Shown: positions 6,001-9,000 of the stretch, in pieces | How positions within the stretch are numbered: position 1 is the first letter of the stretch | How the letters are laid out: each line of letters begins with the position of its first letter | IMG/VR virus record: IMGVR_UViG_2529293040_000022 | Reading direction: 5' to 3' (one strand) | Source: a virus | Lineage: Duplodnaviria > Heunggongvirae > Uroviricota > Caudoviricetes | DNA length: 22,206 bases | Program-made: the position numbers

Positions 6001-9000
6001 TTCCCCTGCCGGTTTTTTATTCCTCACATTATCGCAGCCCCTCAGTGAAGGGCTGCTGTAATGCCTGCTCTTACTCAGTAACGACCGCGCCTTCCGGTAA
6101 TTTCATACCGGCAAATACCGGACAGCCCGGGGATCGTTATCTGCAGCTGGTTAGCCAGGGAGTTAATCTCAGCGACCAACACTGGCTTCGTATAGCGCCA
6201 TGCCGCCAGCCCTTGTCCACAGAAGCTCGCCATATCTTTTTTCTGATCAAACTCATGACACTTCATATTGAGCTGCGCACTTAAGCTGTTGCGATGCTGA
6301 AGTTCTCCGGTGAAGTAGTCATCCAGGACTTTATAGGCTGCATATTTAAATCCGGGGTTTAGCCATGCTGCATAATCATAAGCAACAAACTTCCCGCCAT
6401 ATGTTCCACCGTGTACACCGCGCTCAGTAAAAACCACAGATTCGTGTTTTTTCTCCAGCTACTTAATGCGCTGGGTGCGGATATATTCCTGCGCCCCTTC
6501 CAGTTGCTTCTGCATCGTCATCAACCGTTCTCTGAGGGTGAAATAATCCCGTTCAGCGGTGTCTGCCAGTCGGGGGCTGGTTGCATTATCCATGCTGGTG
6601 GGTCCGGTGGCTTCACGCACGGCTGCGGAGCAACTGGCATTGACCCGCAGGCGCTTACGACCAGCGGCAACATCAGCGCGCAGAGTTTCATTTTCAGTTT
6701 TCGCATCGGCTAACTCCTTCGTGTATTTTGCATCGATCGCAGCAACATCACGCTGACGCTGCTGCATGTCAGCGATGGTGGCGGTCGCCTGCTTCAGCTC
6801 ACTGACTTTTTTATCACGCTGTTCTTTGTAGGCGATGGCGTTATCACGGTAATGATTAACAGCCCATGACAGGCAGGCGATAATGCAGATAACCAGAGCG
6901 GAGATAATAACGGTTACCCTGCTCATTGTTGCCCCCACAAACAGACTTCACGCTCAATCTCGCGGCGAGTCATCAGCCCTTTCCATTGCTTACCGCCAGC
7001 GTATGTCCAGCGCCGTAGCTGATCACATGCGCCTTTGATATCGCCCTGGTTTATTTTGCGAAGAAGCGTCGATGTTCTGAAATTGCCAGCGCCCACGTTG
7101 TAAACGAACGAGTAAAGAGCGCCGCGCGTTGTTTCCGGTATATCGACGTTGATGTACGGGTTAATTTGTCTGGCGACCGTGGCAAGGTCTTTATTCAGGA
7201 GGGCTTTGCATTCTGCTTCGGTATACGTTTTACCGAGCATAATGTCTTTTCCGGTGTGCCCGTAACATACAGTCCATACACCAACGATATCTTTATATGG
7301 TATGTAGCTGACGCCTTCCAGACCATCGTTACCACTTGGGCCAGTGATTAACACAGATGCTATAGCAATAGCCCCGCCACCAATAGCCGCAGCAACGGCT
7401 TTTCGTAATGATGGAGGCATTATTCACCTCTCGCAGCCTTACGCTTGTCTTCTCTGATTTTGAAGTACAGATTTGTCAGGTAAGTCAGAAAGCCCAGAAC
7501 CAGACTTCCCAGCACACCAATCGCAGCCCACTGTGACGGACTGACCTGATCAAGCCACTGTAAAAACCAGTAGCCAGCACTACCAGCGGATGTTCCGTAG
7601 GCAATGCCAGTAGAGATTTTGTCCATTGATTTCATAGCAACGCCTCCGCCAGTAACGGATTGCGTAGTTCTTATATTGGGAAGGGGAAAAAAGAAGGCCG
7701 CAGCGTAACTATCACTAATAAATTCAGGACAGCCAGTGGCTACGGCTCAGTTTGGGTTGTGGCGGCCGGAATCGAACCGGCTTCCATCGGTGCGCTGCCG
7801 ATTGCAGTACGCGCGGCGGTCAGCTATATGACTAGTATTTTCACTATCGCCTATCTGCTAGCTCGCCATTGAGCTTCACCACAACGATAAGAGCACTGCG
7901 CGGCACCTTTCACCAATTCCGCGAGGTCTGCGGGTTCAATGCTCTTACCTGTTGTGCAGAAAAAAACCACACGGCAGCGAGTTTAAGCTGTGTGGCGAAG
8001 TTACCTCTCTTCACCAAGTATTCGGTAATAAAATAACTTGTGGTGTTCTCGTTTTTATGCCGATAAAATAAACGGTCCACTTTCAAATGGAGCGATTCAT
8101 GATTTTTCTCAGAACTGAAAACGGCATCGAGAAACTTGAAAACTGGGAGGAAATTATATCCAGACCAAACTTTGTCACCACTATAGACAAAGGAGTTCAA
8201 CAACTTGAGGAGATAATTGGTTACTACAAATTTAAAGAAGAAATCCACTGTGGTCTAACTGGTTGCAACCAACCACATCAAATGGGTTATATTGTAAAAA
8301 CATCTAGTGGCATTGAAACCAACATCGGAAATAAATGTGGTAAAAACGAATTTGGTGTGGAATTTGGTGAAAACGTTCTTAGTTTCAATAAATTTATGCA
8401 ACTCGAAACCAATCGGGAAATTATTAGCACCGCAAAAAGTAAATGTGAAGCGTGGCAAAAAAATATTGAAACGATACGAAATATCAAACCCACAATAGAT
8501 TATCTATCTTCTACCATCGAAAATAGTAAAAATTCCAATTACTCCGGAAGACTTGGTGCTACAGAAATTCGTTTTTTGACCAAGAACCAGACAGGCCTTG
8601 TAACCCTTTCTGAAGTGGAAACTGATAAGAATACCAAAACAATTCTGTTCGCAATGAATGAACACATGCGCGAGTCTGGAGAGGCAATAAGTGAATTCTA
8701 CATAGGAAAAGTATCATTTAGTCATGTTCTTTTACCAGAAAACAATCTTCGTGATTTTTTTGTTGCGCTCAAAGAAGATCTAAAAAAAATTCAGTGTATT
8801 GATCTACAAACAGCCCCAAGCCCAGAAATTTCTAATGTTGCCAAAATTGCCAGTTCAATCGAAGAACGAATCAAGCGATTAAAAAAACTGAAACATGAAG
8901 CCAGTAAATTCCTAACTAAAAAAATCTGCGTCCCATCGCAAACAAAATAAAATACTCATCGACAGCGGATGAACTTGAATTCCATAATTTCGAACGCTTT

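What the first reader, a model, noticed from the sequence alone, without database searches (positions are those of the whole stretch)
7757..7995. tRNA-like remnant and conserved tR' at the left edge of the cargo insertion
Seen in sequence: the minus strand carries a perfect tRNA T-arm (GCCGG-TTCGATT-CCGGC), a 3' acceptor strand and an anticodon-arm-like helix, but I could not pair a 5' acceptor strand, so it is not an intact tRNA. It is fused directly to late-leader sequence (CACAACCCAAACTGAGCCGTAGCC...) that I recall as also present upstream of S in lambda, and lies just downstream of a strong hairpin plus U7 terminator. Established knowledge: Stx phages carry tRNA genes at exactly this Q-S position. 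A decayed tRNA here would mark a recombination scar at the cargo hotspot.
Basis: partly seen in the sequence, partly recalled or inferred. Interest (0 to 1): 0.45.

Follow-up and report, generated by a model that had tools for sequence, protein, structure and literature searches.

The report
Intact five-armed tRNA-like phage RNA
The "broken tRNA" in this prophage's late-gene leader is an intact copy of a conserved, unannotated tRNA-shaped RNA with one extra arm, found in many enterobacterial phages; its function is unknown.

Summary
The T arm, 3' acceptor strand and anticodon-like helix are real. The 5' acceptor strand was missed: GUUGUGGUG (7885..7877, minus strand) pairs with CGCCACAAC (7764..7756). 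It lies far upstream because a 55-nt extra arm sits between the D arm and the anticodon-like arm.

The 130-nt element is not a decayed tRNA. It occurs in more than 120 viral contigs, 175 of 5426 complete E. coli genomes, phage HK75, lytic Salmonella Skatevirus phages, and Klebsiella, Enterobacter and Pantoea phages. Across 29 non-redundant copies, 98% of base-pair cells pair and 17 of 30 pairs show compensatory changes. ARAGORN and Rfam 15 call nothing. Deleting the extra arm in silico makes ARAGORN call tRNA-Arg(GCG).

The extra arm's apical loop always carries a self-complementary hexamer, which suggests kissing-loop dimers. A covarying leader hairpin (P0) precedes the element and competes with its acceptor stem.

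The element fills the Q-to-S slot where related prophages carry tRNA-Asn and tRNA-Thr. A sister type replaces the interior of lambda's RNase III-regulated N-leader hairpin.

Best guess, inferred only: it is cut from the late transcript and acts as a stable, dimeric tRNA mimic. The "cargo" next to it is the phage's own helicase, primase and Q genes.

The parts
7960..7996 (-). Terminator-like hairpin (stem 7996..7967, bulged, 11-nt loop) followed by U7 (7966..7960); positional tR' of the late operon.
   Evidence: Fold. The U-run and downstream sequence are homologous to the region after HK75 Tr' and lambda tR'. The simple scan did not list it.
7951..7956 (-). CACAAC motif. It duplicates the end of the 3' acceptor strand and can pair with GUUGUG (7885..7880), extending P0 at the expense of the acceptor stem.
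   Evidence: Present upstream of P0 in all type-ii contexts. The only variants seen, CAUAAC and CGCAAC, keep pairing as G.U. The minimum-free-energy fold of the full leader uses it.
7886..7949 (-). Leader hairpin P0: 5' strand GGUAAGAGCAUUG (7949..7937), variable loop (7936..7899), 3' strand CAGUGCUCUUAUC (7898..7886). It abuts the acceptor stem.
   Evidence: 19 pairs tested, 95.5% of cells paired, 7 pairs with compensatory change, 0 of 500 shuffles as good. L074 and the L015 type have quite different sequences that are still complementary.
7877..7885 (-).
   Evidence: All 9 pairs form with 7764..7756; six of the nine positions show compensatory change in the family.
7861..7874 (-). D arm GCUC-AAUGGC-GAGC with the conserved GG.
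   Evidence: The stem is nearly invariant and 100% paired.
7804..7858 (-). Extra arm of 55 nt inserted between the D arm and the anticodon-like arm. It has a base helix GCAG/CUGC, a conserved internal loop AUAG / CGCGCGUA, a second helix GGCG/CGCC and a short third helix, and ends in an apical loop of about 20 nt.
   Evidence: Both helices covary. Deleting the arm in silico turns the element into an ARAGORN tRNA-Arg(GCG). No arm-less copy exists in 50,697 phage records.
7831..7836 (-). Self-complementary hexamer ACUAGU in the centre of the apical loop; candidate kissing-loop dimerisation site.
   Evidence: All 46 unique arm variants carry a self-complementary hexamer at this position: six different perfect palindromes, plus UCUGGA with two G.U pairs. 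The same holds in metagenome copies.
7786..7802 (-). Anticodon-arm-like stem-loop AUCGG-CAGCGCA-CCGAU. 'GCG' is at the anticodon position, but position 33 is A and position 37 is C.
   Evidence: The stem covaries to AUCAG/CUGAU, AUUGG/CCAAU and AUAGG/CCUAU.
7765..7781 (-). T arm GCCGG-UUCGAUU-CCGGC.
   Evidence: Three of five pairs covary.
7756..7764 (-). 3' acceptor strand CGCCACAAC, followed by CCAAAC.
7636..7755 (-). Phage-21 (S21)-type leader running to the holin start codon at 7635. This is a separate mosaic module that follows tRNA-Thr in other prophages.
   Evidence: The holin matches PF04971.

Best explanation
SHOWN.
Window 7885..7756 (minus strand) is an intact member of a conserved, unannotated family of phage RNAs.
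- It is a tRNA-Arg(GCG)-type cloverleaf with a 9-bp acceptor stem, a D arm, an anticodon-like arm and a T arm.
- It carries a fifth arm of 55 nt between the D arm and the anticodon-like arm.
- The fifth arm ends in a loop with a self-complementary hexamer.
- A covarying leader hairpin (P0, 7949..7886) precedes it.
- It occupies the slot between tR' and the holin gene where related prophages carry real tRNA genes.

INFERRED.
1. The element is transcribed as part of the Q-antiterminated late transcript. In lytic Skatevirus phages a promoter-like site (10 of 12 consensus matches) lies upstream, so it may have its own promoter there.
2. Host RNA-processing enzymes cut it out: RNase III on the long P0 or extended stems, RNase P at the base of the acceptor stem, and 3' trimming.
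3. Removing the upstream CACAAC strand resolves the competition between P0 and the acceptor stem in favour of the cloverleaf.
4. The released RNA of about 130 nt is stable and pairs with a second copy through the hexamer loop.
5. It then acts in trans as a non-decoding tRNA mimic on a tRNA-binding host or defence protein that is not yet identified.
6. As a by-product, excision separates the antitermination leader from the lysis mRNA. This would resemble what I recall RNase III doing at the homologous position of lambda's N leader.
For: Structure:
- A five-arm cloverleaf is the minimum-free-energy fold of the single sequence and the RNAalifold consensus.
- On 29 non-redundant copies aligned with MAFFT, 98.0% of cells pair, 17 of 30 pairs have changes on both sides and 0 of 500 shuffles reach this. 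Slid controls pair at 34-47%.
- The window copy scores 155.5 bits, full length.

tRNA ancestry:
- ARAGORN calls tRNA-Arg(GCG) once the extra arm is deleted in silico, in both family types.

A gene rather than a scar:
- The same block occurs in HK75, Skatevirus, Pantoea PdC23 and Klebsiella and Enterobacter prophages, in non-homologous surroundings.
- In Skatevirus it lies antisense to the tail genes, downstream of a TTGACA-17-TAGATT promoter-like site.
- In the Enterobacter type an intrinsic terminator follows it.

Dimer site:
- 46 of 46 arm variants have a self-complementary hexamer at one fixed position, in seven different sequences, one of them complementary only through G.U pairs.

Processing:
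- P0 is a 13-19 bp covarying hairpin directly 5' of the acceptor stem.
- The two folds of the full leader are isoenergetic, -77.9 versus -77.3 kcal/mol.
- In type i the acceptor stem is extended by the same strands that close lambda's N-leader hairpin. RNase III is known to regulate lambda N mRNA (PMC8708148).

Slot:
- tRNA-Asn and tRNA-Thr occupy the same place in E. coli J6. Phage L and Sf6 also carry tRNAs there (PMC8022706).
Against: - There is no expression, processing, dimerisation or binding data. Every step after 'transcribed' is inference.
- The acceptor plus T stack is 14 bp rather than 12. The 3' tail is not conserved in type ii: CCAA, ACUU, CCAC. RNase P and CCA-adding enzyme may therefore not treat it as a tRNA.
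- In temperate phages it always lies in an untranslated leader just after an antitermination site, and it has an alternative fold. This fits a purely cis-acting role as well.
- The family is shallow. The model's effective sequence number is 1.24, and the covariation comes from perhaps 6-10 lineages.
- Copies were collected with sequence patterns, which inflates the apparent invariance of the D arm, anticodon-like arm and T loop.
- Lambda does without the tRNA-like core.
Confidence: 0.45

Rival explanations
1. Cis-acting leader element only. The P0 hairpin, the duplicated CACAAC strand and the cloverleaf form an RNA switch or processing and stability module. It would set the 5' end, half-life, Rho sensitivity or translation of the downstream message (holin here, N in type i), and the excised piece would have no function of its own.
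For: - In temperate phages the element always lies in an untranslated leader right after an antitermination site: tR' here, nutL boxB in type i.
- Type i ends 18-25 nt before the N start codon.
- The two folds are isoenergetic.
- Lambda keeps the closing stems and P0 but not the tRNA-like core.
- RNase III regulates lambda N mRNA.
Against: - In Skatevirus the locus is antisense to its neighbours, has a promoter-like site of its own and has no co-oriented ORF downstream.
- In the Enterobacter type a terminator follows at once.
- The near-invariant D arm, T loop and anticodon-like loop and the self-complementary hexamer are not needed for a simple processing site.
Confidence: 0.3
2. One reading: a decayed tRNA gene left as a recombination scar at the Q-to-S cargo hotspot.
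For: - tRNA finders and the Rfam tRNA model call nothing.
- Positions 33 and 37 of the anticodon-like loop are non-canonical.
- Mosaic junctions flank the element.
- Real tRNAs occupy this slot elsewhere.
Against: - All stems pair, with compensatory changes.
- The 55-nt arm is present in every copy and itself covaries.
- The block is conserved at 75-99% identity across unrelated phages and hosts.
Confidence: 0.03
3. A decoding tRNA-Arg(GCG) whose extra arm is tolerated, or removed like an intron, and which supplements translation of CGC and CGU codons.
For: - ARAGORN calls tRNA-Arg(GCG) after in-silico removal of the arm.
- Type i ends in ACCA.
- The element sits in a tRNA slot.
Against: - A33 and C37 replace the near-universal U33 and purine 37.
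- The acceptor stem is 9 bp, giving a 14-bp stack.
- To my knowledge, no bacterial enzyme removes a 55-nt insert at position 26/27.
- From general knowledge, CGU and CGC are not rare codons in E. coli.
- The arm carries its own conserved features.
Confidence: 0.05
4. A DNA-level element: an attachment or recombination site, a homing-endonuclease target, or a cassette recombination site. On this view the inverted repeats matter in DNA, not in RNA.
For: - Conserved inverted repeats flank variable 'cargo', including tandem and empty cassettes.
- An HNH endonuclease gene lies just upstream in 26 of 126 loci.
- tRNA-like sequences serve as attP cores in P22-like phages.
Against: - Many pairs are G.U on this strand only: P0 U18.G32 is invariant, the T-stem has G.U pairs, and the hexamer UCUGGA pairs only through G.U.
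- The T-loop and D-loop signatures are RNA features.
- No integrase is consistently linked.
Confidence: 0.05

Closest known systems
Phage-encoded tRNA genes in the late-operon leader (Sf6 Asn/Thr, phage L Asn/Leu, Stx-phage ileZ/argN/argO)
   Same: Same genomic slot between Q/tR' and the lysis genes. The cloverleaf core has a canonical T loop and D-loop GG. The 3' boundary coincides with that of tRNA-Thr in a related prophage.
   Different: 130 nt with a fifth arm. The acceptor stem is 9 bp. The anticodon-like loop has A33 and C37. ARAGORN and Rfam do not recognise it.
Lambda N-leader hairpin (RNase III-regulated)
   Same: Type-i elements have the same flanks and the same closing stem, GCUUUGGGGUGUG.../...CACACCACCAAAGC, between nutL boxB and the N ribosome-binding site. 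The window's type ii has a comparable long leader helix, P0.
   Different: Lambda's interior has no D or T arm and does not match the family model. That RNase III cuts within this particular stem is recalled from the literature (Kameyama 1991; Wilson 2002), not tested here. Only 'RNase III regulates lambda N mRNA' was checked in a paper.
tRNA-like domain of tmRNA
   Same: The ends form an acceptor stem next to a T arm, and a long helix leaves the core. This is the best (sub-threshold) Rfam match, 20.2 bits.
   Different: No G3.U70, no tag reading frame and no pseudoknots. The score is far below the gathering score of 47. A full D stem is present.
Bacterial Y RNA YrlA (tRNA-like module bound by Rsr/Ro60)
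   Same: A non-coding tRNA mimic with T and D arms that also occurs in phages (PMC4201824).
   Different: YrlA is circularly permuted: its ends form the Ro-binding stem and its acceptor stem is closed by a loop. It is encoded next to rsr. Here the ends form the acceptor stem, no TROVE gene is nearby, and Rfam gives no match.
HIV-1 dimerisation initiation site (kissing loop)
   Same: A six-base self-complementary sequence in an apical loop, with variants that stay self-complementary.
   Different: The loop is about 20 nt rather than 9. Dimerisation is untested. The biological context is unrelated.
mascRNA/MALAT1, and the P1 C4 and P4 CI leader-derived RNAs processed by RNase P
   Same: A small structured RNA embedded in a longer transcript and released by tRNA-processing enzymes. 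This is the mechanism proposed here.
   Different: No sequence or structural homology. Processing here is only inferred. The comparison rests on recalled literature.

Membership tests
Canonical tRNA gene | Acceptor, D, anticodon and T arms that pair | tested here: met
   All four arms are present and pair, but the acceptor stem is 9 bp.
Canonical tRNA gene | Length 70-95 nt, with at most a variable arm between the anticodon and T arms | tested here: not met
   130 nt. A 55-nt arm lies between the D arm and the anticodon-like arm.
Canonical tRNA gene | Seven-base anticodon loop with U33 and a purine at position 37 | tested here: not met
   The loop is CAGCGCA (A33, C37). Family variants are UAGCGCA and CAUCGCA.
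Canonical tRNA gene | Detected by ARAGORN or Rfam RF00005 | tested here: not met
   No call in the window or in 20 related loci. ARAGORN calls tRNA-Arg(GCG) only after in-silico deletion of the extra arm.
Canonical tRNA gene | 3' discriminator base plus CCA, or an end that can be matured to it | tested here: inconclusive
   The window reads ...CACAAC-CCA-AAC, with no discriminator after the 9-bp stem. Type i reads ...ACACC-ACCA. Other type-ii copies read ACUU, CCAC or AUUA.
Decayed tRNA pseudogene / recombination scar | Missing or unpaired arms | tested here: not met
   In the family-model alignment of the window copy no pair is marked non-canonical.
Decayed tRNA pseudogene / recombination scar | No selection on structure (no compensatory change) | tested here: not met
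   17 of 30 pairs show compensatory change; 0 of 500 shuffles reach the observed values.
tmRNA | Rfam gathering score, G3.U70, tag ORF, pseudoknots | tested here: not met
   20.2 bits against a gathering score of 47. ARAGORN finds no tmRNA. Position 3:70 is U-A.
YrlA / bacterial Y RNA | 5' and 3' ends form the Ro-binding stem, the acceptor stem is closed by a loop, and the gene lies next to rsr | tested here: not met
   The topology is tRNA-like, not permuted. Rfam gives no match at E up to 10. The 10 window ORFs scanned against Pfam include no TROVE/Ro60 protein.
Intrinsic terminator tR' (7996..7960) | Hairpin followed by a U-run, downstream of Q | tested here: met
   Hairpin at -13 to -14 kcal/mol plus U7. 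It aligns with the 3' end of HK75's annotated Tr' and with lambda tR'. The simple scan did not list it, probably because of the 11-nt loop.
Intrinsic terminator tR' (7996..7960) | Terminates transcription unless RNA polymerase is Q-modified | not testable with these tools
   Needs in vitro or in vivo transcription assays. The pR' promoter was not located with confidence.
RNase III-processed leader hairpin | Interrupted helix of about 20 bp in an untranslated leader | tested here: met
   P0 has 13 bp, plus 6 bp across a one-base bulge, and it covaries.
RNase III-processed leader hairpin | Cleavage by RNase III | not testable with these tools
   No data. This is inferred by analogy with lambda's N leader.
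Kissing-loop dimerisation element | Self-complementary hexamer in an apical loop, kept through compensatory change | tested here: met
   46 of 46 arm variants, seven different hexamers. Confirmed in metagenome copies.
Kissing-loop dimerisation element | The RNA forms dimers | not testable with these tools
   Only hexamer duplex energies were computed, -3.6 to -8.7 kcal/mol.

The most novel reading that the evidence does not exclude
This is a new class of phage non-coding RNA. It would be a mobile, cassette-borne, homodimeric tRNA mimic, excised from antitermination-controlled leaders. It would act as a decoy or inhibitor for a tRNA-directed host function, for example an anticodon nuclease or another tRNA-targeting defence, or a tRNA-processing or charging enzyme. 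Lambda's own N-leader hairpin and late-leader hairpin would then be hollowed-out relatives of such cassettes.
Probability: 0.2. Interest if true: 0.85.

Novelty: new variant of a known kind. Interest (0 to 1): 0.62.

Why it matters
tRNA mimics such as the tmRNA tRNA-like domain, YrlA and mascRNA are few, and each has led to new biology. This one is absent from Rfam 15. It is not annotated in RefSeq E. coli genomes or in the curated HK75 record, and tRNA finders miss it.

It is nevertheless present in a cultivable laboratory phage of E. coli K-12 (HK75) and in lytic Salmonella phages, so it can be tested directly.

It also connects two much-studied leaders of phage lambda to a wider family of exchangeable RNA cassettes: the N leader that RNase III regulates, and the late leader downstream of tR'. 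Its conserved self-complementary loop makes a simple, falsifiable prediction of RNA dimerisation.

For annotation, tRNA-like fragments in lambdoid late leaders should not be dismissed as scars. The 58-nt 'tRNA-Ser' in GenBank record PQ186186 is a partial call on this same element.

Tried and rejected
1. tmRNA. The only significant Rfam match was 20 bits against a gathering score of 47, and it covers just the T arm and acceptor stem. Rejected.

2. YrlA / Y RNA. The topology is wrong and Rfam gives no match. Rejected.

3. boxA reading of UGCUCUUA (7894..7887). It matches the nut/rrn boxA core. However, other lineages replace it with unrelated sequences that stay complementary to the upstream strand (L034, L130, L133, L074, L015 type). 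It is therefore the 3' strand of hairpin P0. Rejected.

4. Pseudoknot between the loop GCGC (7795..7792) and the conserved GCGCG of the extra arm. Copies with the loop CAUCGCA keep GCGCG unchanged, so there is no covariation. Not supported.

5. Amber-suppressor reading of CUA inside ACUAGU. Other copies have UCGCGA or UCCGGA, and the loop is about 20 nt. Self-complementarity explains all variants. Rejected.

6. An arm-less ancestor. A query made of the spliced core found only two-piece matches spanning 128-131 nt in 50,697 phage records. None found.

7. A second copy in the window, for example in the pL leader. The family model finds only one.

8. Locating pR'. No convincing sigma-70 promoter lies between 8090 and 8000. 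Two weak candidates lie at 8487..8420 on the minus strand. Unresolved.

9. Literature. Eight full-text searches found no description of this RNA. A catalogue of 10,006 candidate viral RNAs (PMC10690425) may contain it, but I could not check.

10. The CRISPR-based genome-reduction study on phage seszw (PMC9825161). It targeted annotated genes only, so retention of the element in the sequenced mutants says little.
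Full report
WHAT IS IN THE SEQUENCE

The late genes of this lambdoid prophage lie on the minus strand. They include a phage-21-type holin (7635..7420, PF04971) and a lysozyme (7420..6923).

- the T arm GCCGG-UUCGAUU-CCGGC at 7781..7765;
- the 3' acceptor strand at 7764..7756;
- a 5-bp helix with a 7-nt loop at 7802..7786.

The T arm is unique in the window and was never matched in 100 shuffles.

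ARAGORN finds no tRNA or tmRNA, and no Rfam 15 family reaches its gathering score. The best weak match is tmRNA, at 20 bits against a threshold of 47, and it covers only the T arm and acceptor stem.

THE 'MISSING' 5' STRAND

GUUGUGGUG at 7885..7877 pairs with CGCCACAAC at 7764..7756. This gives 9 bp with one G.U. It is followed by AA and an ordinary D arm, GCUC-AAUGGC-GAGC (7874..7861).

The strand is 120 nt upstream of its partner because a 55-nt arm (7858..7804) lies between the D arm and the anticodon-like arm.

The minimum-free-energy fold of 7890..7750 is exactly this five-arm cloverleaf, at -49.4 kcal/mol and z = -2.5.

A CONSERVED FAMILY, NOT A SCAR

The block 7898..7756 is conserved as a unit in several places.
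- HK75, in its late leader, where it is not annotated.
- Lytic Salmonella Skatevirus phages. One record annotates its last 58 nt as 'tRNA-Ser'.
- Salmonella phage ST1UNAM at 81% and Pantoea phage PdC23 at 78%.

The wider searches gave:

| Collection searched | Result |
|---|---|
| Complete E. coli genomes | 175 of 5426 carry it, 193 copies, never annotated |
| 185,579 species-representative genomes | only Klebsiella, Enterobacter, Superficieibacter and one doubtful MAG |
| Metagenome records | 52 stretches |

On 29 non-redundant copies aligned with MAFFT, my five-arm structure gave these results:
- 98.0% of cells paired;
- 17 of 30 pairs with changes on both sides;
- 0 of 500 shuffles as good on any measure;
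- 34-47% pairing when the partners were slid.

The acceptor stem, both helices of the extra arm and the T stem covary freely. The anticodon-like stem covaries in four lineages. The D stem is almost invariant.

A covariance model built from this alignment scores the window copy at 155.5 bits, full length, with no non-canonical pair. It finds no second copy in the window.

Caveats:
- The model's effective sequence number is 1.24, so the diversity is shallow.
- Copies were gathered with sequence patterns. The two patterns were complementary, however, so each conserved half was also seen unconstrained.

ANCESTRY

Deleting the extra arm in silico makes ARAGORN, at default settings, call a tRNA-Arg with anticodon GCG. 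This holds for the window type and for the sister type. Undeleted sequences give nothing.

The loop reads CAGCGCA. The near-universal U33 and purine 37 are therefore A and C. The acceptor plus T stack is 14 bp rather than 12.

No arm-less version exists among 50,697 phage records.

The element is thus tRNA-derived, and the sequence features suggest it is not a decoding tRNA.

A SELF-COMPLEMENTARY LOOP

The extra arm ends in a loop of about 20 nt, laid out as 7 nt, a hexamer, then 7 nt.

In all 46 distinct arm variants from 147 loci, the hexamer at this fixed position is self-complementary:

| Hexamer | Note |
|---|---|
| ACUAGU | window copy, 7836..7831 |
| UCGCGA | |
| UCUAGA | |
| GCUAGC | |
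| UCCGGA | |
| ACCGGU | |
| UCUGGA | pairs with itself only through two G.U pairs |

 A contiguous hexamer cannot pair within itself. This is the signature of a loop-loop ('kissing') homodimer, and the G.U case argues for RNA rather than DNA. Dimerisation itself is untested.

A LEADER HAIRPIN AND TWO COMPETING FOLDS

About 50 nt upstream, GGUAAGAGCAUUG (7949..7937) pairs with CAGUGCUCUUAUC (7898..7886), which abuts the acceptor stem. I call this hairpin P0.

It covaries: 95.5% of cells pair, 7 pairs show compensatory change, and 0 of 500 shuffles are as good. Some lineages have entirely different but still complementary sequences.

I first read UGCUCUUA as a boxA. The covariation shows it is simply a strand of P0.

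Just 5' of P0 lies CACAAC (7956..7951), a duplicate of the end of the 3' acceptor strand. It can pair with GUUGUG and extend P0 to 19 bp.

For the full leader 7960..7745 there are two folds:
- long P0 with no cloverleaf, at -77.9 kcal/mol;
- short P0 with the cloverleaf, at -77.3 kcal/mol.

Once the upstream strand is removed, the cloverleaf is the minimum-free-energy fold.

WHERE IT SITS

There are two sister types.

Type ii, the window type:
- It lies between tR' and the lysis genes of lambdoid prophages.
- It also occurs in Skatevirus, antisense to the tail genes and downstream of a TTGACA-17-TAGATT promoter-like site.
- It occurs between the portal and terminase genes of Klebsiella phages.
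- It is followed by an intrinsic terminator in an Enterobacter type.
- Two true tRNAs follow it in one contig.

Type i:
- It ends in ...ACACC-ACCA.
- It lies between the nutL boxB hairpin and the N gene, downstream of cI.

One E. coli prophage carries both types, with different hexamers.

In E. coli J6 the same downstream leader follows tRNA-Asn and tRNA-Thr, and tRNA-Thr ends exactly where the window element ends. The element therefore fills the known tRNA slot of late leaders (PMC8022706).

LINKS TO LAMBDA

Lambda's late leader shares P0 and a closing stem with compensatory changes, GUUGUGCUG...CAGCACAAC. Its interior has no D or T arm.

Lambda's N leader shares both flanks and the closing stem, GGCUUUGGGGUGUGUG...CACACACCACCAAAGC, with type-i elements. 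Again the interior differs.

RNase III regulates lambda N mRNA (PMC8708148). That its cleavage site lies in this particular stem is my recollection of Kameyama 1991 and Wilson 2002, and I did not verify it here.

P0 plus the closing stem also recur in tandem with other interiors, or nearly empty. They behave like a scaffold for exchangeable RNA cassettes.

THE SURROUNDINGS IN THE WINDOW

- The hairpin plus U7 at 7996..7960 is a plausible tR', but it is only moderately stable.
- The supposed cargo at 9133-13448 consists of a DEAD-box helicase, a Toprim primase, an unknown ORF and the Q antiterminator (PF03589).
- Only a 287-aa ORF with no Pfam match, on the opposite strand (8087..8950), lies between Q and the terminator.
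- I could not place pR'.

HOW IT MOST LIKELY WORKS

Shown: an intact, selected, tRNA-derived five-arm RNA with a candidate dimerisation loop and a covarying leader hairpin, located in the tRNA slot.

Inferred, with confidence about 0.45: the element is co-transcribed with the late operon. It is excised by RNase III on P0 or the extended stems, and by RNase P and 3' trimming at the acceptor stem. It then folds into the cloverleaf, dimerises, and acts in trans as a non-decoding tRNA mimic on an unknown tRNA-binding partner. Excision also severs the antitermination leader from the lysis message.

Main rival, about 0.3: a purely cis-acting switch or processing module. The leader positions, the closeness to the N start codon, the two folds and lambda's core-less versions favour this rival. 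Against it stand the autonomous Skatevirus and Enterobacter loci, the near-invariant loops and the hexamer.

Other readings are unlikely: a decayed scar, about 0.03; a decoding tRNA-Arg, about 0.05; a DNA-level site, about 0.05.

NOVELTY

No Rfam family, no annotation and no paper in eight full-text searches describes this RNA. A large catalogue of candidate viral RNAs may list it without comment.

I file it as a new variant of a known kind, tRNA-like non-coding RNAs. Its function is unknown, and the experiments that would settle it are simple to run in HK75.

Noticed in passing
window 8087-8950 (+): A 287-aa ORF with no Pfam match lies on the opposite strand between the Q gene (9963..9133) and the terminator. 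The same arrangement occurs in an E. coli prophage (L004). It is the only cargo-like gene in the Q-to-S interval.
   Followed up: partly
window 9133-9963 (-): The Q antiterminator is an unusually long 276-aa form. It has two PF03589 stretches and a weak DnaJ-type zinc-finger match. Its pR' promoter could not be placed; weak candidates lie at 8487..8420 on the minus strand.
   Followed up: partly
L130, L006, L071 and lambda L161 (about 990-1140): The leader hairpin P0 plus the closing stem GUUGUG.../...CACAAC recur in tandem. They enclose other interiors of about 64 and about 150 nt, or almost nothing (GUUGUGG-CAG-CACAAC in L071). They look like exchangeable RNA cassettes in phage leaders.
   Followed up: partly
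L162 350-520 (-), lambda N leader: Upstream CAAAGC can pair with GCUUUG, which is the strand that otherwise pairs with the downstream CCAAAGC to close the N-leader hairpin. The same three-strand design is seen in type-i elements. I do not recall this alternative pairing being described.
   Followed up: no
L215 2750-2884 (-) and 12907-13040 (+): One E. coli prophage carries two paralogous copies. One lies 25 nt upstream of N and one lies between an HNH gene and the holin. Their hexamers differ (UCUAGA and ACUAGU), which would favour homodimers over heterodimers.
   Followed up: yes
L005 5450-5962, L215 12268-12780, L015 type: An HNH endonuclease gene ends about 150 nt upstream of the element in 26 of 126 loci. 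It might contribute to the element's mobility.
   Followed up: no
L015 7060-7262 (-): The Rfam sRNA STnc100 (55.7 bits) lies just downstream of the element and its terminator in an Enterobacter-type late leader.
   Followed up: no
L002 2319-2760 (+): In Skatevirus the whole RNA locus is antisense to the tail-gene operon. The locus comprises a promoter-like site, about 100 nt, a hairpin, P0, the tRNA-like core and a 13-bp hairpin. No co-oriented ORF follows it.
   Followed up: partly
L002 2587-2644 (GenBank PQ186186): The annotated 58-nt 'tRNA-Ser' is a partial call on the 3' half of this element, not a tRNA gene.
   Followed up: yes
L158 (Cellvibrionaceae MAG contig, 9.7 kb): This contig carries a copy whose core and immediate flanks are identical to the common E. 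coli/HK75 type. It is probably a mis-binned or contaminating enterobacterial phage contig.
   Followed up: no
phage seszw records MZ375295-MZ375355: All CRISPR-generated genome-reduced seszw mutants seen in the searches keep the element, although up to about 10 kb is deleted elsewhere. Five of them differ from the wild-type seszw copy by about one base. The study targeted annotated genes only, so this is weak evidence.
   Followed up: partly
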